Below, piece after piece: positions 26,871 to 49,534 of a stretch of 64,000 nucleotides of DNA. How positions within the stretch are numbered: position 1 is the stretch's first letter; each line of letters begins with the position of its first letter. Origin of the DNA: a virus (lineage: Duplodnaviria > Caudoviricetes); the IMG/VR virus record IMGVR_UViG_2698536598_000002, positions 2,385 to 66,384 of that record; one strand, 5' to 3'. Both the position numbers and the translations under genes were made by a program. The notes under the pieces were generated by a model that made no database searches, was not told the DNA's origin, and was given only the letters and a program-made list of their open reading frames with translations.

Positions 26871-26881
26871 CTCCTGGCACG

Positions 26882-27100: not shown

Positions 27101-27112
27101 GCCTCGGAACCG

Positions 27113-27664
27113 TCACGCGCAGACCCACATGCCGAAGCAGTACGGGGACCAGGCGCCGCGCATATCGAGGATGCAGGTGACCTGCACCGTCCACCCCGCG
27201 GCCGTCAGCATCTGTTCGACGTCCGCCTGTGACCAGGCCCAGTAGTGCTCGATGTTGGCGTCGCCCCAGTTGTCGACCGGCGTGGTCAGTACGAGGCGCC
27301 GGGCCTTGGTCCGGATCAGCTTCAGCACCCGGTCGGGGTCGTCGAGGTGCTCGATGGACTCGGAGCAGACGTACAGGTCGACGTCGGGGATGACGTGGAT
27401 GGTGTCCTCGATGGCGCCCTGAATCGCGTATCCGGGGGCGTAGTCGCCGAGGATCGTCGTCTCGGCGCCGACCGCTTTGGCGATGGCGCCGTTGCCGCAG
27501 GAGAGGTCAGCGACGGAGGAGACGTTCTCGATGCCCTTGGCGAGGGCGATGGTGGTGTCGACGCGGACGTGGTGGTCACGCCAGCGCCGGTGGTCGTGCG
27601 GCTGCGGATAGATGTTCGCGAGCTGCTCGGCCGTGTGTGCGGGGCGAAGCCGCTGCCGGGTCAC
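27113..27664 (-). CDS. Class I SAM-dependent methyltransferase
   Basis: VADLSCGNG motif I; YVCSESIEHLDDP; VLTTP; GTG start overlaps the GT2 stop. Confidence 0.85.
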   Translation of the reverse strand: MTRQRLRPAHTAEQLANIYPQPHDHRRWRDHHVRVDTTIALAKGIENVSSVADLSCGNGAIAKAVGAETTILGDYAPGYAIQGAIEDTIHVIPDVDLYVCSESIEHLDDPDRVLKLIRTKARRLVLTTPVDNWGDANIEHYWAWSQADVEQMLTAAGWTVQVTCILDMRGAWSPYCFGMWVCA

Positions 27665-36066: not shown

Positions 36067-36576
36067 TCAGAGGGTTCGGGCGTGGGCGAGGGCTGCGGCA
36101 CGGTCGAGGTAGAGCAGGGGCTGGCGCGGGCTATTCCGGGCGTCATTCCAGCTGGGGATGGTTTCGGCGTTGGGGAAGTCGCGGCGGATCGCTTCGAGAA
36201 GGAGCACGCACGCGTCGTCTGCTTCGCTGCGGCCGCCGGCTTCGGCCCGGATAGCCCCGATCAGGCATGCCGCGCCTTGCTCGTCTCGGAGGGCTCCGGT
36301 GCACCAGCCGCCGTCAGCGAGGCGGAGCTGCGCTTTGTGGAGGGTGACGGCGATCGGGGTGGTGTACGGGCAGGGGGCGGTGGTGGGGGTGAGCGGGATC
36401 GGTGCCGTCACCTCTGGGATGGGGTCGGCGTCGGGGATGTGGGCGGTGTTGACGCCGATGGCCAGGACGGCGAGTTTGCAGCGTTCGTCCATGACCGCGC
36501 CCACGAGTGCGAGCCGCGCGTCGAGGTCGAGTTCGACCTGGACGTCGGTTGCCGGGGTGGTGGGCGCGGTCTGCAT
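36067..36576 (-). CDS. DUF6197-like protein
   Basis: GWCTGAL.DEQGA.CLIGAIR...IPSWND. Confidence 0.7.
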   Translation of the reverse strand: MQTAPTTPATDVQVELDLDARLALVGAVMDERCKLAVLAIGVNTAHIPDADPIPEVTAPIPLTPTTAPCPYTTPIAVTLHKAQLRLADGGWCTGALRDEQGAACLIGAIRAEAGGRSEADDACVLLLEAIRRDFPNAETIPSWNDARNSPRQPLLYLDRAAALAHARTL

Positions 36577-37346
36577 CAGGCAGTCGCCTTGCTTGCTTTG
36601 CCGGTGCCGGTGCATTCGGGGCAGACGGTGAGGGTCTGTTCACCGCCGTGGGCGCCGTGGAGCTTGCCGTTTCCGGCACACATCCAGCAGAGGCCTTTGG
36701 CGATGGCTTTGCCGGGGTGCATCGCCTTGTTCTGCTTGATCCACTGCTGGTCGGTCATCCCGGAGTTGGCGACGACCTTGGACACGGCGGGCTTCTTGGC
36801 AGGCTGGGTGGCGGCTTCGGTGGCTTGGGCGTACCAGGCTCCGCCGACGCTCTTGCCGCCGTGCTTCTGCTTCTCGTGGTTGCGCAGCGCCTTGGTCGCT
36901 TCCTTGGCGTCGCGGAACCGCGGCTTCTCTTTCTTGCCGCAGGGGCAGGCCCAGCCGACGAGGCCGGTGTTCTTGTCGGCGCCGAACCGGCTGGCCTTGT
37001 AGACGGCCCACTTGGAGACCTTGGCTTTGGTGGGCTTGGCGGGGCAGGGCTTGGATCCGGTGAATGCCCCGTCTTTGCCCTGGGTGAAGATCTGCCCGTT
37101 GCCGTGGCATTTGGGGCAGCCTTCGTGGGTGGCGCGGAGGATGGCGGCGTCTTTGCGGGAGCGGACGACGTCGTTGCGGGTGTCGAGGTGGGAGACGGCG
37201 AAGAGGACCATGCGGGCGCCGATTTGGGCGTGGAGCGGGCCTGTGCGGGGGATCTTGACGCGGCGGGCGGGGTGCTTGCGCGCGGGCGTCCTGCGGGCCT
37301 TGGATACGGTGGCGCGGCGGGCCGGGCTGCGCTTCGCGGGCGGCAT
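36576..37346 (-). CDS. Basic protein with three DnaJ-type CxxCxGxG motifs
   Basis: CPKCHGNG, CWMCAGNG, CPECTGTG; K/R/A-rich. Confidence 0.75.
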   Translation of the reverse strand: MPPAKRSPARRATVSKARRTPARKHPARRVKIPRTGPLHAQIGARMVLFAVSHLDTRNDVVRSRKDAAILRATHEGCPKCHGNGQIFTQGKDGAFTGSKPCPAKPTKAKVSKWAVYKASRFGADKNTGLVGWACPCGKKEKPRFRDAKEATKALRNHEKQKHGGKSVGGAWYAQATEAATQPAKKPAVSKVVANSGMTDQQWIKQNKAMHPGKAIAKGLCWMCAGNGKLHGAHGGEQTLTVCPECTGTGKASKATA

Positions 37347-37390
37347 TCGGGCTCCTCGGGCAGGTGGTCGGTTTGTGATGGTTTGTTAAG

Positions 37391-37543
37391 CCCTCGCGAG
37401 GCCCTCGGGGGTGCTCCGTCGCAGGTCACGGCCCCTCGGCCTACCCCTCGCGGGGTCCTCGCAGATTTCGCGAGGGGTAGGCCGAGGACTTGCGTGAGGG
37501 GCTGTGACCTGCGGTCGAGGGGTTCCGAGGACCTCGCGAGGGG
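37391..37543. repeat. Long imperfect palindrome of CCTCG repeats (clt-like locus)
   Basis: Perfect 19-bp inverted repeat 37434-37452/37469-37487, 9-bp pair 37421-37429/37504-37512, CCTCGCGAGG at both ends. Confidence 0.85.
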
Positions 37544-37551
37544 TGGACTTT

Positions 37552-39555
37552 CTAGCGCAAAGCGGTCAGCGCTTCGATCTTGTAGCCGTTCGGGTTCTTC
37601 AATCCGTCAATGGCTCCGATGGGCACCGGCACGCCAACACCGACCTCCCTGAACAGCTTTCGCAGCTCGGCCACCGTGAGGTCGCCATAGGCTTCCGGAT
37701 CGAAGGCCGCGAGCGCCTCGGCGAGAGGCTCGGGGCGGATCCGCTCCACTCGGGCCGTGACCATGACCTCGATGGCGTCGACGACGACCTGCCGGTCCCC
37801 GGGGATCCGCTTCTGCTCTACTCCCTCGTCGGCGAGGTGCAGCAGCCCAGCAGCGGCGAGCGTGTCTCGGTCGAACCAAGGACGCCCAGCCGCGACGCGA
37901 TCAACGACGGCCTGCTTGATGCCGTGGTTGCCGTGCTCGTTCCACCCGTACAGCAGCGGCCGGTCGAGCCCCGGGCCCTTGATGTACGACTGGCCGGCGT
38001 CGTTCTTGATGTCCTTGTTCTGGGCGGGGACGAGCCGGTCGGGGCGGAAGCCCTTCGCGGCGGCGCCCTGGCCCAGGACGAGCCGGATATCGTCCCAGCG
38101 GGAGGCCAGCATGACTCGCAGGGTGAAGGTGTCGGCGATGGCGTCTCCCATCGCGTCGGACGTGGCGTCCTGGCCGGCCGCAATCACGTAGATGCCGGAC
38201 TGCTTGCCGATGCGCAGCAGCTCGATGAACAGCTCCTTCGCCCGCGGGCTGAGGAAGATGAACTCGTCGACGCACGCGAAGATTGCCGGGTGTTCCTTGG
38301 TGGCCACCCAGGTGTCGCCCATGCCGAGCCGGTTGCGGACGACGTTCCGCCCGCCCGCCATCTTGACCAGGTACTCAAGCCACTGCTCGCACGCCTTGTT
38401 GCCGCGGATCGGTGGGACGGCCGTGGCGCCTTCGAACTCGCGGAGCCCGTCCTTGATGGGGTCGAGGTCGAGGAGGATGGCGTTGTGGCAGGCGGTGATG
38501 ACCTCCGCGAGATCGCGCAGCACGCCGGTGGACTTGGCGGCACCGGAGACGCCGATGACGAGAATGCGCTGCCCTTCGAGCACCAGGTCGAGCGGCGAGC
38601 CGTCCATGCAGCGGCCAAAGTTGTGGCTGTGGGCGATGTCGAGGCTGTTCGGAGCGTGCACGGCAGGCTTGGCCATGTCGTCGAACGGGTTGCCGGTGAC
38701 GAGCCGGAGCACAAGGTGCGCGGACTCGGCCGGATCGGGGTCGATGAGGGTGCCGCCCTGCTTGATGTTGAAGTGTGCGTCCAGTTGGTCGCAGACCGCG
38801 TTCACCTTGCCGGGGGTGGAGCCCTTGAGGACGACATCGACCTCCCAGAACTTGCCACGGAAGCCGAGCGCCCGAATCTGCCGGACACCGACGCCTTCCC
38901 AGGCCAGCGCCCGGGACACGCAGTCCTCGACCATGCCCGGCGACGTGCACAGGGCGAGCGGGAACGGCTCGTCGGAGTTGGGGTCGTCCTGTTCGGCGAT
39001 CATCTGCTGGGGGGCGATGTCGGGCCGGTTGACTCGGTAACGGCCGTACAGGGTGACCACGGTTGCGGCGACCGCTGTGGTCAGGGACGGGGGGATCATC
39101 CAGGACCAGTCGAGGGCAGTCATGCCCGCGTACTTCACGAGCGCCCACCAGCCGGCCAGGTTCAGACCGGCAGTGATGCCCGCACCCCAGCCGAGAATCC
39201 TCCACCGCTTCTGGCGGACCTGCTGGTTCATGGACCAGTCGGACTTCTTCTGCATGCCGCCGATGACTTCCTGGAAGTCGTGGCTGCGCACGTACCGCCA
39301 GCCGAGGAAGCTGACGGCCCGCATACCGGCCGCGAACCAGGTGGCGGTGAGGCCCACGGCGCGGCCGGTCTTGGCAGCGGCGACCATGGCCGCCGAGCCG
39401 GTCTTCGACAGGACGGTCGGGTGCGGGGTGTAGGGGACGACAATGCCGGGCGCGATGTCCTCGCCGGACAAGTCGTCGGGCACATGCAGCTCGCCGGGGA
39501 TGACCTTCGACAGGTCCCAGTCGTTAGGGAACTCGGGGTGCTGGTCGAGGCTCAT
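37552..39555 (-). CDS. FtsK/SpoIIIE-type DNA translocase, Streptomyces TraB-like
   Basis: Two N-terminal TM segments; GVSGAAKST Walker A variant; FACVDEF Walker B; LLRIGKQSGIYVIAAGQ; C-terminal winged-helix-like tail. Confidence 0.85.
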   Translation of the reverse strand: MSLDQHPEFPNDWDLSKVIPGELHVPDDLSGEDIAPGIVVPYTPHPTVLSKTGSAAMVAAAKTGRAVGLTATWFAAGMRAVSFLGWRYVRSHDFQEVIGGMQKKSDWSMNQQVRQKRWRILGWGAGITAGLNLAGWWALVKYAGMTALDWSWMIPPSLTTAVAATVVTLYGRYRVNRPDIAPQQMIAEQDDPNSDEPFPLALCTSPGMVEDCVSRALAWEGVGVRQIRALGFRGKFWEVDVVLKGSTPGKVNAVCDQLDAHFNIKQGGTLIDPDPAESAHLVLRLVTGNPFDDMAKPAVHAPNSLDIAHSHNFGRCMDGSPLDLVLEGQRILVIGVSGAAKSTGVLRDLAEVITACHNAILLDLDPIKDGLREFEGATAVPPIRGNKACEQWLEYLVKMAGGRNVVRNRLGMGDTWVATKEHPAIFACVDEFIFLSPRAKELFIELLRIGKQSGIYVIAAGQDATSDAMGDAIADTFTLRVMLASRWDDIRLVLGQGAAAKGFRPDRLVPAQNKDIKNDAGQSYIKGPGLDRPLLYGWNEHGNHGIKQAVVDRVAAGRPWFDRDTLAAAGLLHLADEGVEQKRIPGDRQVVVDAIEVMVTARVERIRPEPLAEALAAFDPEAYGDLTVAELRKLFREVGVGVPVPIGAIDGLKNPNGYKIEALTALR

Positions 39556-40817
39556 GACGGGTCCTTCTTGGCGGCGTTCTTGGTGCGGAGGAGTTCGCTG
39601 TGCGCGCGGCCGGCGGCGCGGCTGTAGCGGGGGGTGTCGCCCTTCGTGCGGCGCGGGGGAACGGGCTTGTATCCGGAGCGGGGTGTTTGGATCGCACGCT
39701 GCGCGTTTGTGGTCTTGCTGAGGGTGTTCACGGGGCGCTGCTGACGGGCCGCTTCGACCCTCGCGGTCGCGGCGTTGCGCATACGGAGAACCTCAGCGGA
39801 CTCGCCCGGCTTGGCGCCCTCCACGTCGAGCTTGGCGCGCTCCCAGACGGCGTTCGGGTCCGTCGCGGCGAGGTCCGCGGCGAGCTTCACGGCGTGCTCC
39901 CACACCTTCGGGAAGAGGGTCGCGCGACGCTCGGCGAGCTGCTGCGCGGTCTCCGCCGCAGCCTTGTCGGCGGCGGCCCTCTCGGCCACGCGGCACTTCT
40001 CCTCTGCGGCCTGCTTCTTAGCTGCTGCAGCCTCGACCTTGCGCTGCGCTCCGCGCTCACGCCAAGTCGGCTTGCCGTCCAGCTTCCGGATGCGGCCGTG
40101 CTCGTGGAGGTCCCACATACCGGGACCAGCGATCGAGGCTAGGGCAGTGCCGAAAGCGGTCGCCGGGTCGAAGGCGTCGAGGCCGTGCACGACGTTGATG
40201 ATGGCGGCGGTAAGCGCGCCGCCCCAGGCGACGAGCCGGTAGTGCCACTGAGGGCGACCGTCCGTGACCGCCGCCGCTGCTCCAACGAGCGCGACAAGGG
40301 CGATCACCTCAATGAACACCGGGGCGACGAGCAGGTACTTGGCGGCCGGGTCGAAGAAGGCGGCCATCTGTACGGGCAGGGCGACCGCAGCACACAGGGC
40401 GTAGAAGCCCATCGCCACTCGGCGCCACCGCACGCTGGACTTCTTGACCGCCTTGGCGCTCGCAGCCTCGGCCCGCTCCTGCGCCTCTGCCTGGCGGCGC
40501 GCGGCCTCACGGGCGCGGTCGCTCTCCTCGCGCTTCCGGTCTGCCTCGGCTGTCTTCGCGCGCTGCTCGGCCCTCTCTCGCTCGAATCGCACGACAGCCC
40601 GCTCGTGGGCCAGTGCCTGCTTCTCGTTCTCCAGCCGCAGCTGCTCGGCCTGCTGCACCTTGAGGGCCTTCTCGCCCTCGGCCGCAGCGAGCAGTGCCTG
40701 GCGCTCGGCGGCGGCACGGACACGGATCGCCTCCGCCTCAGCGGCACGCACGGGGTCAACGCGCAACTCGGAGGCAACGGGCGTCCCGTTCACCTGCTCG
40801 ACAGACGTGGCGGTCAC
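39552..40817 (-). CDS. Coiled-coil + 4-TM membrane protein (DUF2637/SpdB2-like)
   Basis: A/E/R/Q coiled coil, four hydrophobic segments, basic C-terminus; ATGA-coupled to the translocase. Confidence 0.75.
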   Translation of the reverse strand: MTATSVEQVNGTPVASELRVDPVRAAEAEAIRVRAAAERQALLAAAEGEKALKVQQAEQLRLENEKQALAHERAVVRFERERAEQRAKTAEADRKREESDRAREAARRQAEAQERAEAASAKAVKKSSVRWRRVAMGFYALCAAVALPVQMAAFFDPAAKYLLVAPVFIEVIALVALVGAAAAVTDGRPQWHYRLVAWGGALTAAIINVVHGLDAFDPATAFGTALASIAGPGMWDLHEHGRIRKLDGKPTWRERGAQRKVEAAAAKKQAAEEKCRVAERAAADKAAAETAQQLAERRATLFPKVWEHAVKLAADLAATDPNAVWERAKLDVEGAKPGESAEVLRMRNAATARVEAARQQRPVNTLSKTTNAQRAIQTPRSGYKPVPPRRTKGDTPRYSRAAGRAHSELLRTKNAAKKDPS

Positions 40818-40832
40818 GGCGGATCAGTCCTC

Positions 40833-41129
40833 TCAGGCGGTGGCGCTGGTGCGCGCCTTGTGGAATTCGCGGACGAACTCGTCGGTCAGGCCGGAGCCGA
40901 CCGCCGCGCCGACCGGGCCGATCCCGGTGACGGACGCGGCCCACAGCTCCAGCCAGGCGGCCCGGGTGGCCAGGTAGTTGATGACGGGCCGGGCGCAGCG
41001 CACAGTCAGGACGACGACGCCGAGCCCGGCCATCACCAGCAGGGCGAGGACTTTCAGCGCCCACCGGCCCGCCCAGGCGGCGGCGCGGGCCAGCCGGCCA
41101 GGCTTCGCGGTGATCAGATACGGGCGCAT
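40833..41129 (-). CDS. Small single-TM membrane protein (Spd-like)
   Basis: WALKVLALLVMAGLGVVVLTV. Confidence 0.7.
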   Translation of the reverse strand: MRPYLITAKPGRLARAAAWAGRWALKVLALLVMAGLGVVVLTVRCARPVINYLATRAAWLELWAASVTGIGPVGAAVGSGLTDEFVREFHKARTSATA

Positions 41130-41155
41130 GACGGCCTCTCGGGTTGGGTGTCGGG

Positions 41156-41362
41156 TCAGCTCTTGCGCTTGGTGCCGCCGTGCCAGAAGCCGACCTTCGC
41201 GGCGGCCTCGTTCGCGGCCGTGTTGAGGCGCTGGTACTCCGGGGTCTCGTCCCGGATCCCGGCCTTGAACTCGCGGCTGCTGTTGTCGTTGAGCGCCTTG
41301 TCCGCGGCCTTCATCTCGGCGATCGCGGCCTTCTCCTCGGGCGACTTACTGAACAGGCCCAT
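41156..41362 (-). CDS. Small helical hypothetical protein
   Basis: MGLFSKSPEEKAAIAEMKAAD...; GGAG RBS. Confidence 0.7.
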   Translation of the reverse strand: MGLFSKSPEEKAAIAEMKAADKALNDNSSREFKAGIRDETPEYQRLNTAANEAAAKVGFWHGGTKRKS

Positions 41363-41375
41363 CAGGGCTCCTCTC

Positions 41376-41437
41376 GGTGGGTGGCGGAACGCTGAGCGGT
41401 TCCCCTCACCGCCCGTTCGAGACGGGCGGATCGGGCA
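41376..41437. repeat. Intergenic repeat copy 1
   Basis: GGTGGGTGG..GGAA.CGCTG...CCCCTCACCGCCCG-loop-CGGGCGGATCGGGCA. Confidence 0.8.
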
Positions 41438-41453
41438 ACAGGTCAGGCGGCGG

Positions 41454-41645
41454 TCAGGAACGGCGCTGCAGCTCCTGGCTGATCTGGTCGAGCGTCCGCC
41501 GGTACCCGTCAAGGGCGTTGTCCTCGCCCGTGAGTGCGGTAGCACCGAAGGCGGACTGCATGCGGGCGGCCGAATCGACGTTGGCCTGCGCCTGCTTGGC
41601 CTCGGCGTGAAGTTCGTCGGTTGAGTGGCGGCTGAAGAAGCCCAT
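41454..41645 (-). CDS. Small helical hypothetical protein
   Basis: MGFFSRHSTDEL... Confidence 0.7.
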   Translation of the reverse strand: MGFFSRHSTDELHAEAKQAQANVDSAARMQSAFGATALTGEDNALDGYRRTLDQISQELQRRS

Positions 41646-41664
41646 GACGTTTCATCCTTCGTTT

Positions 41665-41730
41665 GGTGGGTGGTGGAAGCGCTGTCCCGGCTCCCCTCAC
41701 CGCCCGGCACAGGTCCGGGCGGATCGGGCA
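41665..41730. repeat. Intergenic repeat copy 2
   Basis: Same arms as 41376-41437 with a different loop. Confidence 0.8.
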
Positions 41731-41763
41731 GCCGATCAGTGCGTGTGCGTGTCCGGTGGGCGG

Positions 41764-41958
41764 CTAGCTGATCTTGGCGGGGCCGACCTGGACGCTGGAC
41801 GCCTGGACGCCTTCCTTGGCGAGGTCGGCTCGGATAGCCCTGGCGTCCTCGCGGGGCGGGTTGAAGGCGTTGATGGTGTGGGTGCCTTCGATCTGGCTGG
41901 TCTCGCCGGTGTCGGGGTTGGTGACGGTGGCGGTGTAGTCGCGGGTCCGGAAGGGCAT
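41764..41958 (-). CDS. Small hypothetical protein
   Basis: MPFRTRDYTATVTNPDTG...; GGAG RBS. Confidence 0.65.
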   Translation of the reverse strand: MPFRTRDYTATVTNPDTGETSQIEGTHTINAFNPPREDARAIRADLAKEGVQASSVQVGPAKIS

Positions 41959-42113
41959 GTGGGGCTCCTGTCGGGTTGGCTGATCAGGTGGGTGGTGCAG
42001 TGCCCGTGTCTGCTGTCGAGGCGTAGGCCCGGGTTCGGCCTGACGGGGGCTGAGCCGTGCTGGCAGGGCGGAGGGGAGCCGAACACCCGCCAGCACGGCG
42101 CTTTGGGGGCCGG

Positions 42114-42347
42114 TCAGGCGGCGGCCGGGTAGTCGAAGCCGGCCAGCTCGTCGGCGAGCGGGTTGGACTTCACGGCCTGACGGATCACGTCCATGCGCGC
42201 CTTGTCCCCGGCCGCACGGGCGTTGGCGAACGCGGTGAACAGGTCGGTCACGCTCAGGACGGCGGCCTCGGCGACCGTCGTGTTCGCGCGGGCCCTGCGG
42301 CCCAGCTCGGTGGCGCCCAGGTCGGCGGAGAACAGGAACGGAGACAT
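42114..42347 (-). CDS. Hypothetical protein
   Basis: 77 aa. Confidence 0.65.
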   Translation of the reverse strand: MSPFLFSADLGATELGRRARANTTVAEAAVLSVTDLFTAFANARAAGDKARMDVIRQAVKSNPLADELAGFDYPAAA

Positions 42348-42386
42348 GGTGGTGCCCTCTCGGGTGCAGGAACAGGTGGGTGGCGG

Positions 42387-42665
42387 TCAGGCGGTGACGC
42401 GGGTCAGTTCGAATCGAGCGACAGTGACGATGCTCGGGTCCACGTCCTCGCAGACCTGGTTGACGAAGTGCTGGCGGATCAGCGCGTGGACGACGGGCTC
42501 GGACAGGTCGAACTGGCCGGAGGCGTGCCGGGTCGGGGTCGTCGGGGAGGCGTAGGCGTTCCGAAACGCGGGCGGCGTGTGCTCAGGGATGGAGACGCCG
42601 GGGAACTCGACGGCCAAGTCGTAGTCGTAGCGGCCGGGCTCGACGATCTCGCTGGAAGAAGGCAT
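42387..42665 (-). CDS. Hypothetical protein
   Basis: 92 aa; GGAG RBS. Confidence 0.65.
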   Translation of the reverse strand: MPSSSEIVEPGRYDYDLAVEFPGVSIPEHTPPAFRNAYASPTTPTRHASGQFDLSEPVVHALIRQHFVNQVCEDVDPSIVTVARFELTRVTA

Positions 42666-42762
42666 GACTGGTCTCCTCGGTTGGTCGTGCCGGGATGTGG
42701 TGGTGGGAGCCGCGGCCGGCGGGACGGGGGGTCGACCGCCAGCCGCGGCGGTAAGGGGCTGG

Positions 42763-42918
42763 CTAGTGCCAGCTGTGGCAGCGGTCCCGCCACGTCAGAT
42801 GCACCGGGCAGGTGACCCGCTCGTGGGCCGGGGTCTGGTCGCGGGCCTCACGCTGCAAGGCACGGTCCAGGTCGTCGGAGCAGTCGGCCGGCATACGCGG
42901 CAGCGTCGGGGCCGCCAT
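42763..42918 (-). CDS. Small Cys/His protein
   Basis: CPVH..W..RC. Confidence 0.55.
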   Translation of the reverse strand: MAAPTLPRMPADCSDDLDRALQREARDQTPAHERVTCPVHLTWRDRCHSWH

Positions 42919-43253
42919 CACTCGCCCTCGCCCTCGAACGGCGGGTAGATCGTGGCCCGGATCGCGCCACGGACACGCTCGCCCTGCCACGAGAACTTCG
43001 CGTACAGGTGGGTCGCCCCACCGGAGTCCACCCGCTCGGGGATGACGTCCGCGTCCAGGTGCCGGGCCCAGGCGTCGAACGCCGCACGCTGCTCGTCCGG
43101 CGTCGACGTCAACGAGTCGACGTCGGCGACCAGGGCCCCTGACGTTGCGATCGTCCAGGTGACGCCGGGGAGGTCATCGGCTTTGAGCAACTCGCCGAGG
43201 GCCCGGTGGGCGTCCCGCTGCCAGCGCCTCACATACATCTGGTCGGCCATCAC
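42918..43253 (-). CDS. Hypothetical protein
   Basis: 111 aa, coupled. Confidence 0.7.
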   Translation of the reverse strand: MMADQMYVRRWQRDAHRALGELLKADDLPGVTWTIATSGALVADVDSLTSTPDEQRAAFDAWARHLDADVIPERVDSGGATHLYAKFSWQGERVRGAIRATIYPPFEGEGE

Positions 43254-43326
43254 GCCACCGCCTTGTGCGGGTGGGGGCGCGGCGGACGCACCGGAAGCGG
43301 CGGCTTCGACTTGCCGTGCTCGGCGC

Positions 43327-43647
43327 TCACCGGGACGCCCCGATCAGGTCGAGCTGGCAGCGGCAGGCGCGCATCTCGTCCTGCGCCAACAGCACCGCAT
43401 CGAAGTCCGTGTCCGGGTTCGCGGCCAGCCGGCGGCACCGCTGCGACGCCGCCCGATACCGGTCCAGCAAATCGGCCTCGGCCAGGCTCACCCGCGTGCA
43501 CTTGGTCCCGTTGATGACCACCGACTCGCCGACCCGCAGGCCGGCCAGACGACGCTCCAAACGGTGAATCGCGTCCACGGCGGCCGACGGGAGCGGGGCG
43601 GTGGGGATGCCCGGCGGGAGCGGGGCGCGGACATGGCTGGCGGTCAT
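43327..43647 (-). CDS. Hypothetical protein
   Basis: ATGA-coupled to the HNH gene. Confidence 0.6.
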   Translation of the reverse strand: MTASHVRAPLPPGIPTAPLPSAAVDAIHRLERRLAGLRVGESVVINGTKCTRVSLAEADLLDRYRAASQRCRRLAANPDTDFDAVLLAQDEMRACRCQLDLIGASR

Positions 43648-44354
43648 GACGACTCCTTCGGGGCGTTGTTGCGCGCCTGCTTCTTCTTGGCGCGCTGGCG
43701 ACGGTCCTGCAACGTTCGGCACGTCCGGCAGCGCTTGGTGCCGCTCGGATCGATGTAGGTGTTCTCGGGCGTGAACTCATGCCCGTGGACGCAGACTTCG
43801 GGGTCTTCTCGTCGCTGCCCCTGCTTGCTGTGGCTGGGAACATCGACGGTGTAGGGGCGCGCCTTGGCCTCCGCGTACCGCCGTCGACCACGCTCGCGCT
43901 GGCATGTGAGGCAGCCTCGCCCGGTGGGCACCGCGACCGTGTTTTCAGGGGTGAACTCGTGCCCCTTCTGGCAGTGCGTCTTGCGAAAGTTGATCGCGGC
44001 GCGCGCTATCGGGGAGCGGAGGACGTTCTCCCGGCAGGTCACCGGCTCAAGGTGCGCGGGGTTGCAGCATGCGTGGACCCGGCAGAGGTGATCGAGGTGC
44101 AGTCCTGCGGGAATCTCGCCAACCAGCACCATGTAGGTGACGCGGTAGACGGGAAGGATCTTCCGTCGCAGGCTGAAGCGCCCATAGTCGAGCTTCGTCC
44201 GCTGTCCGGTCCAGATCCAACAGCCGTCCTCGTTGGGCTCGACGGGAGCCCAGAGCCGGTGCAGCTGCTTCTCGGTGAGTCGGTGCCGTGTTCCGTCGGG
44301 AAGCGTCACCGGCTTCATGCCTTCGAATGGCGCAGAAGGGGGAGTGCTCATCAC
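43644..44354 (-). CDS. HNH (homing-type) endonuclease
   Basis: CWIWTG...YGRF...LDHLCRVHACCNPAHLEPV; two GHEFTPENT repeats. Confidence 0.9.
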   Translation of the reverse strand: MMSTPPSAPFEGMKPVTLPDGTRHRLTEKQLHRLWAPVEPNEDGCWIWTGQRTKLDYGRFSLRRKILPVYRVTYMVLVGEIPAGLHLDHLCRVHACCNPAHLEPVTCRENVLRSPIARAAINFRKTHCQKGHEFTPENTVAVPTGRGCLTCQRERGRRRYAEAKARPYTVDVPSHSKQGQRREDPEVCVHGHEFTPENTYIDPSGTKRCRTCRTLQDRRQRAKKKQARNNAPKESS

Positions 44355-44569
44355 GCGGCCTCGTCTTCGAGAGCGAGCAGCGCATCGACAGCACTGCTGG
44401 GGATTCGGATCGCTCCCCCGCGCCGGGTCTCGCCCTCTACTCGGGGCTGCCCGTACTGGATCGACGGCAGGTATCCGCTGGCAGCCCAGCGGTAGACGGT
44501 CGGCTTGGAGACCCGCAGCAACATTGCGGTCTCCGCCACGGTGAGCAGCTTTTGGGCCGCAGGCAGCAT
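44351..44569 (-). CDS. Excisionase-family HTH protein
   Basis: LLTVAETAMLLRVSKPTVYRWAASGYLPSI. Confidence 0.88.
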   Translation of the reverse strand: MLPAAQKLLTVAETAMLLRVSKPTVYRWAASGYLPSIQYGQPRVEGETRRGGAIRIPSSAVDALLALEDEAA

Positions 44570-44608
44570 CTGGCTCTCCAATCCAGGAGTTGGGGTGTCG
44601 ATGTCTCG

Positions 44609-44640
44609 ACTGTATTAGGTGTGCGGTTCTGTTGCAACAG
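44609..44640 (-). promoter_or_regulatory. Sigma70/HrdB-type promoter of the leftward transfer operon, with an overlapping 12-bp palindrome
   Basis: TTGCAA-N17-TACAGT on the minus strand; CTGTTGCAACAG at 44629-44640. Confidence 0.6.
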
Positions 44641-44751
44641 TCGTGGGGGCGTCAATCGCTCTCATCCGCTCCGCACGAGCGCCTGAACTGGCCCTATCGT
44701 TGGGAAGGTGTTCAATACAGCTGGAGAAGTCGCCCACCAAAGGAGGAGCGA

Positions 44752-45288
44752 GTGTCAGACGCCCAATGGACTGGCGCCTCAGCGCCCTACATTCGCCCCA
44801 ACCAGGGCGACGCCTGGGGCAAGGAGGCTGCAGCGCAAGGGCGCACCGGCACGCAGCACATCCTGTTCGCCGGCGAGGCGGCCGCACCTACAGAGGTCGC
44901 ATCTGCACTCGACATCAAGGAGGGGCACCCCGTGATTCTCCGACGGCGGCTGATCCTTCTCGATGAGATTCCCGTCGAGATCGCCAGCTCGTATTGGCCG
45001 CTCAGCGTTGCTGCCGACACGCCCCTCGCAGTACCAGGCAAGGTGAAGGGTGGGGCTCCAACTCTGCTCGCCGGTCTGGGCTATACGCCTCACGGCGTCA
45101 CGGAGAACGTCCGGACCCGCCCAGCGACGCCTGCCGAGCTTGAGACTCTCGCGATGTCGGATGACAGCGAATGGGTCCTGACGCTGCGCCGGACGATCAA
45201 GAACGACTCCGACCGACCCTACGAGGTGTTCGTCAGTGTGGCTCCCGGCCGCATCGGGCAGCTCAACTACTCGATGAAGGCGGGCTGA
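44752..45288 (+). CDS. Stand-alone UTRA domain protein (no HTH)
   Basis: LRRRLILLDEIPVEIASSYWP...E.V.TRPATPAE...L; AAGGAGG RBS. Confidence 0.85.
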   Translation: MSDAQWTGASAPYIRPNQGDAWGKEAAAQGRTGTQHILFAGEAAAPTEVASALDIKEGHPVILRRRLILLDEIPVEIASSYWPLSVAADTPLAVPGKVKGGAPTLLAGLGYTPHGVTENVRTRPATPAELETLAMSDDSEWVLTLRRTIKNDSDRPYEVFVSVAPGRIGQLNYSMKAG

Positions 45289-45290
45289 CC

Positions 45291-46052
45291 ATGGCAGACG
45301 AACGCCCCGACGGCAGTGTCTGGTCCTCACAGGAGCAGATCGCCGCCTACATCCGCGACCGGATCATCAACGGCGATTTCGAACCGGGCGAGAAGTTGCC
45401 GTCTCTGCGACAGCTCGTGTCGCAATTCGGTGTCGCGCCAAACACCGTCCGGGCTGCAATCGCGACACTCGCGAGCGAGCGCCTGGTGATCTCCGAGCAA
45501 GGGCGCGGCGTGATCGTGCGCCATCACCGGCAGTTGACCATGCGCCCGGCCGCTTACAAGAACCCGGCGCCACAGGGCGAGAAATACCAGTGGCTGGCGG
45601 AGAACGAGAAGCGCGGCATGACCGCGAAGGCGAAGTTGCTGCATGTAGGCGAGGTCATCCCGCCAGCCGCCGTGCGGGAAGCCTTCCAGCTCGGCAAGAA
45701 CAAGCCCGCGCTGCTGCGGCGGCAGGTGCTCTCACTCGACGGCGAGCCGTGCGAACTTGTCGAGGTGTACCTCCCGCTCGACATCGCGGCAGGCACCAAG
45801 CTGATGAACAACCACCTTCTCCGAGGCGGATCGGGTCGAGTCCTTGAAGACCTCGGTTACCCGAGCATCCGCTGTGAGGACAGAGTGTCGGCGCAGCTGC
45901 CGACACCGGAGCAGTACGCAGCCCTACAGATGCCGACCAAGCTCCCGATCCTGCGCACGTTCCGCACCACGTTCAGCACCGACGACCGTCCGATCCAGGC
46001 AGAGATCATGGCGAAGGCTGGCCATCTCTACGAGCTGCAGTACGACTTCTAG
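45291..46052 (+). CDS. GntR/HutC-family regulator (HTH + UTRA), KorSA/TraR-like
   Basis: QIAAYIRDRIINGDFEPGEKLPS...FGVAPNTVRAAIATL..E.LV...QGRG; C-terminal UTRA. Confidence 0.93.
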   Translation: MADERPDGSVWSSQEQIAAYIRDRIINGDFEPGEKLPSLRQLVSQFGVAPNTVRAAIATLASERLVISEQGRGVIVRHHRQLTMRPAAYKNPAPQGEKYQWLAENEKRGMTAKAKLLHVGEVIPPAAVREAFQLGKNKPALLRRQVLSLDGEPCELVEVYLPLDIAAGTKLMNNHLLRGGSGRVLEDLGYPSIRCEDRVSAQLPTPEQYAALQMPTKLPILRTFRTTFSTDDRPIQAEIMAKAGHLYELQYDF

Positions 46053-46066
46053 GCGTCCGTGATCCC

Positions 46067-46092
46067 GCCCCCGACTCGTTCGAGTCGGGGGC
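46067..46092 (+). terminator. Stem-loop after GntR gene
   Basis: GCCCCCGACTCG/CGAGTCGGGGGC. Confidence 0.7.
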
Positions 46093-46443
46093 TCGTGCTG
46101 CTGCGGGCAAGCGCACGGACTAGCCACTGTGTGGATTTGCTAATACAGTTGCGTGCAAGTGAGAGTGTCCGCCGCCACACACTCAGTTAGGAGCGGCATG
46201 CCCGAACCGTCGACCGCGTGAGGGACCGGCTAGGTTCGGTCACGTGACGGCGGTTCCCCGGATTTATTTGACAGCGCTGGGAGCATTCATACAGGCGCCG
46301 TTCACCGGGCGTTCAGGGCGGTCATCACCTGCCCGGAACGCGAACGGCCGGGCGGTCATCACCCGCCCGGCCGTAGTTCGACCAGCGAGTCATCACCTCG
46401 CTGACCAAGACACCCGCTCACCGTGAAGAGAGAAGGAATCTCC

Positions 46444-46875
46444 ATGAGCGTAGCAAGCCCCGAGTCCGCCGTCTCCGTCGCGCCTCGTCTCGTTCCGGCC
46501 TCCATCGGCCGCCCCGGCCGTGTCCAGACGGTGTGGATCCAGTGCTTCGCCTGGTGCACGGTGGATCACGTCGAGAACCGTGAGGTGGCGCTGGAAGACG
46601 TCACCCACTACGGGCCGGGCCCGTTCGTGCAGGTACCGACCCTGCTGGACGACTCGACGGCCGTGCACGAGTGGTACGTCAACATCATGTCCGACCCCGC
46701 CAGCGACGACCCGCGCATGCGGGCTGCGCACCTGGTCGTCAGTGCCGCCAGCCCGGAAGACGCCCACCTCACCGAGGAACAGGGCGAAGAGTTGGCCGCC
46801 GAGCTGATTCGCATGGGCACCGAGATCCGCCAGGCCCTGCGCACGTGCCGCCTGGCGAACGTGCCCGCCGCCTGA
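46444..46875 (+). CDS. DUF6907-like protein
   Basis: C..WCTVDH...H.G...LTEEQGEELAAEL. Confidence 0.7.
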   Translation: MSVASPESAVSVAPRLVPASIGRPGRVQTVWIQCFAWCTVDHVENREVALEDVTHYGPGPFVQVPTLLDDSTAVHEWYVNIMSDPASDDPRMRAAHLVVSAASPEDAHLTEEQGEELAAELIRMGTEIRQALRTCRLANVPAA

Positions 46876-48202: not shown

Positions 48203-49534
48203 TTAGTCTTCGCGTGCCCAGAACTGGGTGGGGTCGGCCGGGGGAGGCGGCTGCCGCGCTTCTCGGGCGTCTTCGCACTTGGCGATGCGTGCACGCACGT
48301 CGGGGTGTTCGGCGAGCCAGTCGGGGAGCTTGGTGGTTTCGTAGATGTCGGCCATGCAAATCTGCGACACCTTGAGGTTCCTGGCGTAAGTAAGGTTCGC
48401 ATGGGCGAGTTCTACCGATGTGAGGTCTGCGCCTTCTAGGTCGGCTCCGTGCAGTACGGCTCCAGCCAAGTCAGCTTTCGAGAGATAGGCGTTCTTGAGG
48501 CTCGACATCTGCATTTTGGCGCAACGCAGGTTTGCGTCACTAAGCTGCGCCCCTTGAAGGTCGGCCTCGACCAGGTAGGCGTTGCTGAGAGTAGCCTTTT
48601 CCAGTTCTGCCTTGCGCAGGTTGGCTCCGACGAGTTCGGCCCAGCTGAGGTTTGCCATGGGAAGGCATACGCCGGGTAGTTGGGCCTGTATCAGGCAGGT
48701 TCCCTCGAGACGGACTTCAGGTGCATCCCATCCGGTGAGCTTGATGCCTCGCAGGTCGGTTCTGGGGCGTCCTTGCTGCCAGTCGCTCTGGAGGACGGTC
48801 AGGGCTGCCCGGATGTCTTCGGCGAGTGGGGTCCTTGCTATCTCGTGCTCGTCGAACTCGTCTGCGACGTAGGCCTCGATCTCGGGGGCTGTTCCGTCGA
48901 GGCGCGTTCGAACGTAGGCGGCAAGGACTGCGATGACTGTGGGGCGGTCTTTCTCGGAGTCTTTCATGATGCGTTCTAGGGCGTAGATGCCGCCCAGGAT
49001 CTCGTACCGTTCCTTCGATGCAAGCAGCTTGATCGCTTCGATGTACCGGCCGGTGACCTGCCCTTCCCGAGTGAGATCGGCTTGCTTCTCGTCGCGGGCT
49101 TGGGTTTCGCGCAGCGTGGTCTCGAATTGCTTCTGGTTTTCGGCGAACTGGTCTTGCGCGTGCTGGAACTGCTCGCGTTCTAGTCGGTGCTTCTCGCGCG
49201 TGTAGTAGAGGCCGACGATTGTGAGGGCGCCGACGATGAGCGCGATGAGCATTGTGCGGAAGCCGGTGATGATGACTCCGGCGGCGGTGACGAGCTTGTC
49301 GTCTTTGAGGCGGTGGCCTTCGACCCACCAGGGCGCCCAGACCAGCAGGATGATGAGCGTGACGGTGCCGGCTGTGCCGCTCGCAATGAGTCGGGTCCGG
49401 TGGCGGCGAGCATGGTTTTGCACTGCGGCCTTGTTGTCCGGGTCGGGTTTGGCCCGGTCGTGATAGGCCCAGATGAGGGTTCCGGCGAGGACGAGGACTG
49501 CTAATGCGAGGGCGATGTGTGGCAGGTAGTGCAT
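48203..49534 (-). CDS. Membrane-anchored pentapeptide repeat protein
   Basis: Three hydrophobic segments; GGIYALERI; A(N/D/E)L..A pentapeptide repeats. Confidence 0.9.
   Translation of the reverse strand: MHYLPHIALALAVLVLAGTLIWAYHDRAKPDPDNKAAVQNHARRHRTRLIASGTAGTVTLIILLVWAPWWVEGHRLKDDKLVTAAGVIITGFRTMLIALIVGALTIVGLYYTREKHRLEREQFQHAQDQFAENQKQFETTLRETQARDEKQADLTREGQVTGRYIEAIKLLASKERYEILGGIYALERIMKDSEKDRPTVIAVLAAYVRTRLDGTAPEIEAYVADEFDEHEIARTPLAEDIRAALTVLQSDWQQGRPRTDLRGIKLTGWDAPEVRLEGTCLIQAQLPGVCLPMANLSWAELVGANLRKAELEKATLSNAYLVEADLQGAQLSDANLRCAKMQMSSLKNAYLSKADLAGAVLHGADLEGADLTSVELAHANLTYARNLKVSQICMADIYETTKLPDWLAEHPDVRARIAKCEDAREARQPPPPADPTQFWARED

What the first reader, a model, noticed from the sequence alone, without database searches (positions are those of the whole stretch)
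36576..46092. A Streptomyces plasmid-type conjugation module inside a complete phage genome
Seen: one leftward operon runs Xis-like HTH, HNH, small genes, a 1-TM protein, a coiled-coil/4-TM protein and an FtsK-type translocase. It is divergent from a GntR-UTRA regulator and followed by a repeat locus. Known: Streptomyces plasmids and AICEs (pSVH1, pSN22, pIJ101, pSAM2) transfer double-stranded DNA with a single FtsK-like TraB, Spd membrane proteins, a cis-acting clt repeat locus and a GntR-family Kor/TraR repressor. Inference: no separate integrase, RCR Rep or att repeats flank the module, so it would mobilise the phage replicon itself. That would give one genome two spreading routes, virions and hypha-to-hypha conjugation. 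From memory the plasmid-phage pZL12 is a partial precedent, so novelty needs checking. The Walker A is non-canonical (GVSGAAKS).
Basis: partly seen in the sequence, partly recalled or inferred. Interest (0 to 1): 0.88.

Follow-up and report, generated by a model that had tools for sequence, protein, structure and literature searches.

The report
Plasmid-type DNA pump cassette in phage
A complete 66-kb Streptomyces tailed-phage genome carries a conserved DNA-pump cassette related to plasmid mating genes, with matching docking repeats, so its DNA may also move between hyphal cells without virus particles; two Streptomyces plasmid-phages already show this idea.

Summary
Window 36576-46092 carries a leftward, tightly packed operon. 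It ends in a 98-aa 1-TM protein, a 421-aa coiled-coil/4-TM protein, a 667-aa FtsK-type translocase, a 150-bp repeat palindrome and a 256-aa zinc-finger protein. The operon is divergent from a UTRA-only gene plus a GntR-UTRA gene.

The translocase misses Pfam FtsK_SpoIIIE and NCBIfam TraB. It is an FtsK motor by profile (2ius, E=2e-16) and by fold (Foldseek E=2e-16). It falls in a compact family that holds the Tra of conjugative plasmid pFP1.

The membrane protein is a remote homologue of pFP1's DUF2637 protein and has the SpdB2 architecture.

The repeat motif differs between related phages and tracks the translocase's C-terminal winged-helix domain, not its motor. This suggests a matched pump and docking site.

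Only four genes plus the array are conserved in relatives. GntR, HTH and HNH are variable. Most relatives (17/22) are integrating phages; this genome has no integrase, partition genes, tRNA or att repeats.

The most likely function is virion-independent transfer or spreading of phage dsDNA. It is untested.

pZL12 and pFP4 are experimental precedents with unrelated or very distant genes. This scan has already found the same cassette on at least nine other genomes.

The parts
45171..46052 (+). GntR-family (HutC/UTRA type) regulator. The likely start is about 45291, 2 nt after the UTRA-only gene.
   Evidence: Pfam GntR E=3e-21 and UTRA E=1e-18. It is 29% identical to the GntR beside the tra operon of plasmid NZ_CP108056 (E=5e-29). 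It is kept in only 2 of 10 relatives.
44752..45288 (+). UTRA-only protein (178 aa, no HTH), preceded by an AAGGAGG ribosome-binding site
   Evidence: Pfam UTRA E=3.6e-13; sequence read
44582..44751 (.). Divergent intergenic (promoter) region with a perfect 12-bp palindrome, CTGTTGCAACAG, at 44629-44640. The palindrome is a candidate operator.
   Evidence: binding is inferred only
44351..44581 (-). 76-aa HTH_17 (MerR/excisionase-like) protein, first gene of the leftward operon. It is variable among relatives.
   Evidence: Pfam HTH_17 E=4e-13; found in 1 of 10 relatives
43644..44354 (-). HNH endonuclease (236 aa); variable, not part of the conserved core
   Evidence: Pfam HNH_3 E=6e-8; no counterpart in the 10 relatives
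41156..43722 (-). Run of small genes of unknown function. It includes two paralogous genes of about 65 aa made by a 292-bp tandem duplication. Content varies among relatives.
   Evidence: GC3 frame analysis, translations, repeats D7 and D12, patchy conservation
40833..41129 (-). 98-aa protein with one TM helix. It is the most conserved cassette member.
   Evidence: TM segment 21-50. It is 80-90% identical in 9 of 10 relatives and 46% in the most distant one, L008.
39552..40817 (-). 421-aa SpdB2-like membrane protein with an N-terminal coiled coil, 3-4 TM helices and a C-terminal domain. Its stop overlaps the translocase start (ATGA).
   Evidence: architecture. hhalign to the pFP1 DUF2637 protein gives probability 97.2%, E=3e-11. 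The architecture matches SpdB2 of pSVH1 as described in PMC4447253. Translational coupling is shown. It is conserved in 9 of 10 relatives.
37552..39555 (-). 667-aa FtsK/TraB-like dsDNA translocase. Residues 55-176 form hydrophobic helices, 200-560 form the alpha/beta plus RecA-like motor, and 589-667 form a winged-helix-like domain. The Walker A is GVSGAAKS.
   Evidence: phrog_12531 E=3.5e-66. The family profile hits FtsK 2ius at E=2e-16. The AF2 model has pLDDT 86.5. Foldseek gives the FtsK motor at E=2e-16. hhalign to pIJ101 Tra gives 98.7%. Tree.
37391..37543 (.). clt-like docking array. About 6 forward and 5 reverse copies of YCCTCG lie at 10-12-bp spacing and form a 150-bp near-perfect palindrome. 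It starts 9 nt after the translocase stop.
   Evidence: The same layout with other motifs occurs in relatives. The motif class follows the translocase C-terminal domain.
36576..37346 (-). 256-aa basic protein with three CxxCxGxG-type zinc-finger motifs. It is a conserved downstream partner of the translocase.
   Evidence: Weak DnaJ_CXXCXGXG and Anti-TRAP hits. It is 53-75% identical in 10 of 10 relatives. A CxxCxGxG patch matches the gene just downstream of the translocase in pFP1 and NZ_CP108056 (E=0.003).

Best explanation
The core is four genes (a 98-aa 1-TM protein, a SpdB2-like pore or anchor protein, an FtsK/TraB-like motor and a zinc-finger protein) plus a phased repeat array. Together they form a double-stranded-DNA translocation machine that acts on the phage genome itself.

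Proposed mechanism:
- The motor sits in the membrane through its N-terminal helices (inferred).
- It hexamerises like FtsK and TraB (inferred from the fold).
- It docks on the array through its C-terminal winged-helix domain (supported by co-variation).
- It pumps unprocessed phage dsDNA through a septal cross-wall or a hyphal contact, with the SpdB2-like protein as partner (inferred by analogy with pSVH1).

The biological result would be virion-independent spreading of phage DNA, along a mycelium and possibly into neighbouring mycelia. In this genome the operon sits opposite a GntR/UTRA regulator pair, which may gate it (inferred).
For: 1. FtsK motor. The family profile hits FtsK 2ius at E=2e-16, and also conjugation coupling protein TcpA and EccC/EssC. 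The AF2 model (pLDDT 86.5) gives FtsK motor structures as top Foldseek hits (E=2e-16, TM 0.71 on the target), then TcpA. K341, R403, D430 and E431 are invariant.

2. Plasmid kinship. It is 30-36% identical to translocases on 45 Streptomyces and Kitasatospora plasmids. These include pFP1, whose Tra is treated as a conjugative-plasmid Tra in PMC3218068. In pFP1 and NZ_CP108056 the gene order is GntR, then divergently small genes, a DUF2637 protein, the translocase and a 257-aa CxxCxGxG protein. In an ML tree the phage clade (100%) sits inside this family, apart from chromosomal FtsK and pIJ101 Tra at 92-95% support.

3. The SpdB2-like partner matches the pFP1 DUF2637 protein (97.2%, E=3e-11). 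It has the coiled-coil plus 4-TM plus C-domain layout of SpdB2 (PMC4447253) and is translationally coupled to the motor.

4. Docking array. Seven CCCTCG copies lie in 152 nt (P about 9e-10). Copy offsets are conserved across relatives. All copies change together between phages: CCCTCG, TGCTCG, TGCTCA, TGCTA, CGTCTA. Motif class needs 3 changes on the C-terminal-domain tree (0 of 2000 shuffles do as well) but 9 on the motor tree (P=0.12). Mutual information peaks at residues 601-650, not at the residues nearest the array, and stays low in the adjacent zinc-finger gene.

5. The core is kept intact in 10 of 10 relatives and in about 50 loci at 45-86% identity.

6. There is no integrase, tRNA or att-like repeat around it.
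Against: - Curated models fail: no Pfam FtsK_SpoIIIE hit, NCBIfam plasmid_TraB 15 bits against a cut-off of 800, and no DUF2637 hit.
- In this subclade the Walker A glycine before the lysine is alanine (GVSG[AS]AK[ST] in 113 of 120 close relatives). ATPase activity is therefore unproven.
- The array is bipolar, unlike the direct TRS repeats described for plasmid clt loci.
- The C-terminal domain and the array are physically adjacent, so part of the co-variation could be linkage.
- 17 of 22 relatives carry tyrosine integrases, so in most of them transfer would first need excision.
- Lytic BE-cluster phages carry a lone homologue with no partners. This shows the motor alone can serve another phage purpose.
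- There are no expression or transfer data.
Confidence: 0.55

Rival explanations
1. Segregation or inheritance device. The motor clears or pumps episomal or replicating phage DNA through closing vegetative or sporulation septa, as FtsK and SffA do for the chromosome. This would keep a phage without an integrase or partition genes in every compartment and spore. It would not move DNA into other mycelia.
For: FtsK is the best structural match. This genome has no integrase, and no ParA/ParB was seen among the proteins scanned. The two inverted halves of the array recall the polar KOPS logic of FtsK (my own knowledge of FtsK). A relative sits on its own 61.9-kb contig with terminal repeats in an isolate assembly.
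Against: 17 of 22 relatives have integrases and would not need it. The motif is not enriched or spread over the genome as KOPS are: 74 copies against 92 expected, clustered only in the array. The SpdB2-like partner belongs to plasmid spreading systems (PMC4447253).
Confidence: 0.15
2. A lytic-cycle or host-manipulation factor unrelated to DNA export. Examples are interference with host septation or development (the usual reading of actinophage FtsK-like genes) or exclusion of related superinfecting phages.
For: Papers on Streptomyces phages list FtsK-like genes among development-related genes (PMC10117723; bioRxiv 10.1101/2024.02.16.580700; PMC13587820). Lytic 133-kb BE-cluster phages carry a lone homologue at 32% identity among tRNA genes.
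Against: It does not explain a cognate, co-varying repeat array on the phage's own genome. It also does not explain the fixed partnership with the SpdB2-like and zinc-finger genes.
Confidence: 0.12
3. The palindrome is not a docking site but a replication origin, a terminator or a structured RNA, and the zinc-finger protein or another factor binds it. The translocase works without it.
For: The hairpin is very stable (z=-9.5). Phased iteron-like repeats are typical of origins. The zinc-finger gene starts about 45 nt downstream, and its first 25 residues show some association with motif class (MI 0.15).
Against: There is no T-run after the hairpin. A better origin candidate lies upstream of dnaC, where 4 copies of TTCCCTGTTCCT occur at 59496-59545. 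The association with the translocase C-terminal domain is about twice as strong (MI 0.28-0.30). The array always lies directly after the translocase stop, even in relatives at 45-63% identity.
Confidence: 0.1
4. A decayed AICE or plasmid remnant carried as a passenger with no present function.
For: The Walker A is non-canonical. There is no Rep or Int of its own.
Against: Open frames are intact in more than 120 protein clusters at 68-86% identity. The four genes are conserved in 10 of 10 relatives. The array and the reading domain change in concert. There are no att-like repeats or tRNA genes.
Confidence: 0.05

Closest known systems
Transfer region of Streptomyces theta-type conjugative plasmid pFP1 (NC_006912; Zhang et al. 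2008, cited in PMC3583192) and the similar NZ_CP108056
   Same: The translocases are homologous (30-33% identity, E about 1e-53 to 1e-58). The membrane protein upstream is homologous (DUF2637; hhalign 97%). A protein of about 257 aa with a CxxCxGxG patch lies downstream. A GntR gene is divergent from the operon.
   Different: The plasmid motors are about 860 aa. The NZ_CP108056 motor has an N-terminal FtsK_gamma domain (the pFP1 protein itself was not scanned) and both have a canonical Walker A. The plasmid has MobF, ParA, Rep and many spd-like genes and no virion genes. The phage version is 667 aa, has a C-terminal reading domain, and is followed by a bipolar array.
Streptomyces plasmid-phages pZL12 / phage ZL12 (NC_013420; Zhong et al. 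2010, J Bacteriol 192:3747) and pFP4 (Chen et al. 2012, Plasmid 68:170)
   Same: The idea is the same: one replicon that makes virions and also conjugates. [quoted passage not shown] The layout is also the same in ZL12: a GntR gene, then divergently small genes, a membrane protein, a large protein and an FtsK-like gp071, followed by terminase and portal.
   Different: There is almost no sequence kinship. Only the GntR matches weakly. The FtsK-like protein of the pZL12 type (tested on the 88%-identical NZ_CP108705 copy) is a very distant relative (hhalign 98%, E=1e-13). The pZL12-73 membrane protein is not related to the SpdB2-like protein. pZL12 has ParAB and an integrase and lives as a 90-kb plasmid. 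This phage is 66 kb with neither found. The 88-kb pZL12-type plasmid NZ_CP108705 does share the virion module with this phage (48-85% aa) but not the cassette.
traR - spdB3-spd79-spdB2 - traB - clt system of pSVH1, and tra/clt of pIJ101 and pJV1
   Same: It uses a single FtsK-like motor with a C-terminal DNA-reading domain and short repeats next to the gene. It has a 4-TM coiled-coil Spd partner, small membrane proteins and a GntR-family repressor (PMC4447253, PMC3583192). pIJ101 Tra aligns with the family profile at 98.7%.
   Different: Kinship is remote. pIJ101 SpdB is not detectably related. NCBIfam TraB is not met. The plasmid clt repeats are described as direct repeats, whereas here two inverted sets form a palindrome. 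The motor is the last large gene of the operon rather than the first.
FtsK-like DNA translocases of lytic BE-cluster Streptomyces phages (Jay2Jay gp111, Samisti12, Bmoc; phrog_12531)
   Same: They are the only relatives in the GenBank phage collection (89 records, 31-37% identity) and share the PHROG (E=3.5e-66).
   Different: In Jay2Jay, the one locus inspected, the gene stands alone among tRNA genes, without a SpdB2-like or zinc-finger neighbour. These are 133-kb phages with another lifestyle.

Membership tests
Streptomyces TraB/Tra conjugative dsDNA translocase | FtsK/SpoIIIE-type motor domain (alpha/beta plus RecA-like) | tested here: met
   The family profile hits FtsK 2ius at E=2e-16. 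Foldseek on the AF2 model gives FtsK motors at E=2e-16. hhalign to pIJ101 Tra gives 98.7%.
Streptomyces TraB/Tra conjugative dsDNA translocase | Passes the curated models (NCBIfam NF041214 plasmid_TraB; Pfam PF01580 FtsK_SpoIIIE) | tested here: not met
   NF041214 scores 15.3 bits against a cut-off of 800. PF01580 gives no hit even at E<=10.
Streptomyces TraB/Tra conjugative dsDNA translocase | Intact Walker A, Walker B and arginine finger | tested here: inconclusive
   K341, R403, D430 and E431 are invariant. However, the Walker A reads GVSGAAKS, with Ala in place of the near-universal Gly. This is fixed in 113 of 120 close relatives.
Streptomyces TraB/Tra conjugative dsDNA translocase | C-terminal winged-helix domain reading short repeats of a nearby clt | tested here: met
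   This is an in-silico test only. The model shows three helices plus a hairpin at 589-660. Motif class follows this domain: 3 changes against 9 on the motor tree, with 0 of 2000 shuffles doing as well. Mutual information peaks at residues 601-650.
Streptomyces TraB/Tra conjugative dsDNA translocase | Groups with plasmid Tra proteins rather than chromosomal FtsK or ESX ATPases | tested here: met
   The IQ-TREE motor-domain tree places it in the family with pFP1 Tra. That family is split from FtsK, an EccC-like protein and pIJ101 Tra at 92-95% support. Deep branches are weak, and three reference ORFs were probably taken in the wrong frame.
Streptomyces TraB/Tra conjugative dsDNA translocase | Required for contact-dependent transfer and pock formation | not testable with these tools
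   Needs mating experiments.
SpdB2 / DUF2637 spread protein | N-terminal coiled coil, four TM helices and a C-terminal domain, about 410 aa, encoded next to traB | tested here: met
   421 aa, with the coiled coil at about 20-125 and TM segments at 134-213. It is translationally coupled to the motor. Compared with the SpdB2 description in PMC4447253.
SpdB2 / DUF2637 spread protein | Sequence membership (Pfam PF10935, or homology to a named Spd protein) | tested here: inconclusive
   PF10935 gives no hit at E<=10. hhalign to the pFP1 DUF2637 protein gives 97.2%. hhalign to pIJ101 SpdB gives 1.5%. pSVH1 SpdB2 itself was not available.
[quoted passage not shown] | Cluster of short plasmid-specific repeats adjacent to the tra gene | tested here: met
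   About 11 copies at 10-12-bp phasing lie 9 nt after the stop. The motif is lineage-specific. The difference is that the two halves are inverted.
[quoted passage not shown] | Needed in cis for transfer and bound by the Tra protein | not testable with these tools
   Needs gel-shift and mobilisation assays.
Kor/TraR GntR-type kil-override repressor | GntR HTH plus UTRA domain, divergent from the tra operon, and linked to it across relatives | tested here: not met
   The domains and the divergent position are met. The linkage is not: a GntR is present in only 2 of 10 relatives.
AICE (actinomycete integrative and conjugative element) | Own integrase, own Rep and flanking att repeats, usually at a tRNA gene | tested here: not met
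   No tyrosine or serine recombinase is found in the whole record. There are no tRNA genes and no flanking repeats beyond chance-level 17-38-nt imperfect matches.
Plasmid-phage of the pZL12 type | Virion genes plus plasmid partition (ParAB) plus the pZL12-type tra genes | tested here: not met
   Virion genes are present. No ParA or ParB was seen among the proteins scanned. ZL12 shares only a weak GntR match. Not every small ORF was scanned.

The most novel reading that the evidence does not exclude
A whole lineage of Streptomyces temperate phages has a second, capsid-free infection route. This covers about 50 loci here and 6 of 401 species genomes sampled. A phage-specific TraB-like pump with exchangeable specificity modules (reading domain plus bipolar docking array, in at least five motif classes) would export the phage's own dsDNA through septa or hyphal contacts. 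The specificity classes would work like incompatibility or immunity groups that stop one phage's pump from moving a rival's genome.
Probability: 0.3. Interest if true: 0.75.

Novelty: new variant of a known kind. Interest (0 to 1): 0.55.

Why it matters
If the cassette works as proposed, these phages can spread inside and between Streptomyces mycelia as naked double-stranded DNA as well as in particles. That would change how infection, lysogeny and gene flow should be modelled in multicellular, antibiotic-producing bacteria. It would also blur the line between prophage and conjugative element, and give a natural explanation for 'FtsK-like' genes in actinophages. The exchangeable pairs of reading domain and repeat array offer a set of orthogonal DNA-pump and docking-site pairs for studying how FtsK-family motors choose their substrate. 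The idea of a conjugating phage is not new (pZL12, pFP4). What is added here is a different, widespread gene family, mostly in integrating phages, with sequence evidence for matched specificity.

Tried and rejected
- Single-sequence searches of the translocase found nothing useful. Pfam gave no hit, PDB phmmer gave only noise, and a single-sequence AF2 model reached pLDDT 39. Family alignments were needed.
- Pfam DUF2637 on the genome gave no hit. hhalign of the SpdB2-like family to pIJ101 SpdB and to pZL12-73 showed no relation.
- ESM Atlas on the C-terminal domain returned only unnamed actinobacterial clusters.
- A search for a direct pZL12 relationship was rejected: ZL12 shares only a weak GntR match.
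- AICE-remnant reading: no integrase, tRNA or att repeats.
- Out-of-sample test of the prediction 'NPNGY-class proteins have CCCTCG arrays'. Nineteen of 123 proteins are in the NPNGY class. Two further viral scans found no NPNGY contig other than the window.
- The papers on pZL12 (PMC2897331) and on pFP1/pFP11 (PMC2423013) are not held. Their content is quoted only through citing papers.
- In the tree, three reference ORFs (FtsK_G006, sm455, sm446) lack a P-loop and were probably taken in the wrong frame. They were ignored.

Full report
**What the window is**

The window is bases 2385-66384 of a 66,384-nt IMG/VR virus record with a CheckV completeness of 100%. The last 183 nt of the record repeat its first 183 nt with 2 mismatches, so the unit genome is about 66.2 kb and is circular or terminally redundant.

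Nearly all genes lie on the minus strand.
- Positions 1-23,500 hold an anti-repressor, a lysin, tail genes, a 1619-aa tape measure, the major tail protein, the major capsid protein, a scaffold protein, the portal and the large terminase.
- Positions 51-64 kb hold DnaB, DnaC, a methyltransferase and RecT.

The whole record contains no tyrosine or serine recombinase and no tRNA gene. No ParA or ParB was seen among the proteins scanned.

**Check of the observation**

- HTH_17 protein at 44351-44581.
- HNH endonuclease at 43644-44354.
- Small genes at 41156-43722.
- A 98-aa protein with one TM helix at 40833-41129.
- A 421-aa protein at 39552-40817 with an N-terminal coiled coil and 3-4 TM helices.
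- A 667-aa protein at 37552-39555 with GVSGAAKS.
- On the other strand, a GntR+UTRA regulator.

Two additions are needed. A UTRA-only gene (44752-45288; E=4e-13) precedes the GntR gene. A 256-aa basic protein with CxxCxGxG motifs (36576-37346) follows the repeat locus.

The stop of the 421-aa gene overlaps the translocase start (ATGA).

**Is the 667-aa protein an FtsK/TraB-type motor?**

Single-sequence tests do not show it.
- Pfam gives no hit.
- PF01580 gives no match even at E<=10.
- NCBIfam plasmid_TraB scores 15 bits against a cut-off of 800.
- PDB phmmer gives only noise.

PHROGs places it in phrog_12531, 'FtsK/SpoIIIE-like' (E=3.5e-66).

An exhaustive HMMER search of 1.84 billion cluster representatives found only 231 clusters at E<=0.001, so this is a compact family. 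A profile of 65 members hits several solved structures:
- FtsK motor domains (2ius, E=2e-16);
- EccC/EssC;
- the conjugation coupling protein TcpA.

With a 116-sequence alignment, AlphaFold2 gives a confident model (pLDDT 86.5).
- Residues 55-176 form long hydrophobic helices.
- Residues 200-560 form an alpha/beta plus RecA-like motor.
- Residues 589-660 form a three-helix plus hairpin domain.

Foldseek ranks FtsK motors first (E=2e-16), then TcpA, then EccC/EssC. The family profile aligns with pIJ101 Tra at 98.7% probability.

K341, R403 and E431 are invariant and D430 is invariant or nearly so. The glycine before the Walker lysine is alanine in this subclade: GVSG[AS]AK[ST] in 113 of 120 close relatives. 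More distant relatives have the canonical GxxGxGK[ST]. The change is old and stably kept, but whether the ATPase works is unknown.

**Kinship with plasmid transfer genes**

tblastn finds 30-36% identical genes on 45 Streptomyces and Kitasatospora plasmids. In pFP1 and NZ_CP108056 the gene order is as follows:
- one or two GntR genes;
- divergently, three small genes;
- a 480-aa DUF2637 protein;
- in NZ_CP108056, a small zinc-binding protein;
- the translocase of about 860 aa;
- a 257-aa protein.

pFP1 is a known conjugative plasmid, and its Tra is used as a plasmid Tra in PMC3218068.

The 257-aa plasmid protein shares a CxxCxGxG patch with the window's 256-aa protein (E=0.003). The window's 421-aa family aligns with the pFP1 DUF2637 protein at 97.2% probability (E=3e-11). 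It does not pass Pfam DUF2637 and does not match pIJ101 SpdB.

Its layout of coiled coil, four TM helices and a C-terminal domain in about 410 aa is that of SpdB2 of pSVH1. SpdB2 is the pore-forming, TraB-binding spread protein. [quoted passage not shown]

A maximum-likelihood tree of the motor domain puts the phage proteins in one clade (100% bootstrap). That clade lies inside the family holding pFP1 Tra, NZ_CP108056 and Jay2Jay gp111. The family is separated from chromosomal FtsK, an EccC-like protein and pIJ101 Tra at 92-95% support. Deep branches are long, and three reference ORFs were probably in the wrong frame, so only this coarse split is used.

**The repeat locus**

A 150-nt near-perfect palindrome begins nine bases after the translocase stop (37391-37543). 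As single-stranded DNA it folds at -65 kcal/mol, z=-9.5. It is built from about six forward and five reverse copies of YCCTCG at 10-12-bp spacing.

CCCTCG is not enriched in the window as a whole (74 copies against 92 expected). Seven copies nevertheless lie in these 152 nt (Poisson P about 9e-10).

Relatives keep the same copy offsets: 11, 22, 32, 53, 65 and 77 forward, then 91, 102, 114, 145 and 156 reverse. They also keep a CCGCAGG box. The repeated word differs between them:
- TGCTCG;
- TGCTCA;
- TGCTA;
- CGTCTA;
- others in more distant members.

All copies in an array change together, as expected for a site read by a specific protein.

**Who reads it?**

The motif class matches the sequence of the translocase's C-terminal domain.

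| C-terminal sequence | Array motif |
|---|---|
| PVPIGDIDG..NPRGY | TGCTCG |
| VTLG | TGCTCA |
| QLG.CEGE | TGCTA |
| NPNGY (this window) | CCCTCG |

On a tree of residues 1-575 the motif classes are scattered: 9 changes, with P=0.12 against shuffled labels. On a tree of residues 576 to the end they need only 3 changes, the minimum for four classes, and 0 of 2000 shuffles do as well.

Mutual information between residue and motif class is 0.01-0.10 along the motor. It rises to 0.28-0.30 at residues 601-650 and falls to 0.15 in the last residues, which are the ones nearest the array. It stays at 0.03-0.16 in the neighbouring zinc-finger gene.

Physical linkage can explain some of this. The position of the peak and the concerted change of all copies favour a functional pair, as with TraB and its TRS repeats (PMC4447253).

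Nineteen of 123 related proteins carry NPNGY.

**What is conserved**

In ten relatives the following are always kept: the 98-aa protein (80-90% identical in 9 of 10, 46% in the most distant), the translocase (63-83%), the array and the zinc-finger protein (53-75%). The SpdB2-like protein (34-83%) is kept in 9 of 10. GntR appears in two relatives, the HTH in one and the HNH in none. The functional unit is therefore four genes plus the array. The regulator pair is a local addition.

About 50 loci were found in IMG/VR, metagenomes and genomes at 45-86% identity.
- Six of 401 Streptomyces species genomes carry a homologue at E<=1e-100.
- Of 22 related viral records, 17 have a tyrosine integrase.
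- Only 8 of the 22 share this phage's portal.

The cassette therefore travels among temperate phages with different virion modules. No record in the GenBank phage collection has the SpdB2-like protein. The only phage-collection relatives of the motor are lytic 133-kb BE-cluster phages. In Jay2Jay, the one such locus examined, the gene stands alone among tRNA genes.

**Independent element or part of the phage?**

There is no integrase, tRNA gene or Rep of its own. No flanking direct repeats exceed short imperfect chance matches. The only DNA that carries the docking array is the phage genome.

**Comparison with what is known**

[quoted passage not shown] The pZL12 and pFP1 papers themselves are not held.

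ZL12 has the same layout: a GntR gene, then divergently small genes, a membrane protein, a large protein and an FtsK-like gp071, followed by terminase and portal. Sequence kinship is nearly absent.
- Only the GntR matches weakly.
- The pZL12-type FtsK-like protein, tested on the 88%-identical copy in NZ_CP108705, is a very distant relative of this family.
- Its membrane protein is unrelated.

The 88-kb pZL12-type plasmid NZ_CP108705 shares this phage's virion module (48-85% amino-acid identity) but not the cassette. This shows free exchange of modules between these elements.

Recent Streptomyces phage papers mention FtsK-like genes only as development-related (PMC10117723; 10.1101/2024.02.16.580700; PMC13587820).

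This scan's own records show the same cassette noted and followed up on at least nine other genomes, with the same reading.

**Verdict**

This is a phage-adapted relative of the Streptomyces plasmid transfer and spread apparatus, with good sequence evidence for a matched pump and docking site. It is not a freshly captured plasmid module.

The most likely role is capsid-free movement of phage dsDNA across septa or between hyphae (0.55). A segregation role, a host-manipulation role and an unrelated role for the palindrome remain open.

It is a new variant of a known kind. The concept has laboratory precedents, but this gene family, its spread among mostly integrating phages and its exchangeable specificity modules do not appear in the papers I could search.

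Noticed in passing
window 59496-59545: About four tandem copies of TTCCCTGTTCCT lie in the 800-nt gap upstream of the DnaC-like loader gene and next to DnaB. This is a more likely replication origin than the palindrome.
   Followed up: no
window 41397-41446 and 41688-41739: A tandem duplication of about 292 bp gives two paralogous small genes of about 65 aa (MGLFSKSPEE... and MGFFSRHSTDE...) inside the operon.
   Followed up: partly
window 46316-46398: Three 34-bp-spaced copies of GTCATCACC(T/C), with an inverted repeat, lie just upstream of the DUF6907 gene (46423-46875, plus strand). This may be a regulator binding site.
   Followed up: no
window 48203-49534: A 443-aa pentapeptide-repeat protein (Pfam E=4e-26) lies in the mixed-strand region between the replication genes and the GntR pair.
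   Followed up: no
L012/L013 (NZ_CP108705.1, 88-kb circular plasmid): This plasmid has a pZL12-type backbone: ParAB, a type III PKS, and an FtsK-like gene 88% identical to ZL12 gp071. It also carries a virion module 48-85% identical to this window's. It is thus a mosaic between two phage lineages.
   Followed up: partly
L002:18990-21581 (NZ_CP108056 translocase): The plasmid translocase has its FtsK_gamma domain at the N-terminus (residues 20-73, E=2e-18) instead of the usual C-terminus.
   Followed up: no
window 30656-31429 and 25995-28362: The early-late junction holds a Thg1-like tRNA-His guanylyltransferase homologue (phrog_4717, E=5e-70), together with glycosyltransferase and epimerase genes. 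A further glycosyltransferase-like gene lies next to the capsid gene.
   Followed up: no
G000:C1:1-183 and 66202-66384 (the latter is window 63818-64000): The 183-nt terminal overlap has 2 mismatches. This suggests the contig closes on itself across a population variant rather than on a true terminal repeat.
   Followed up: partly
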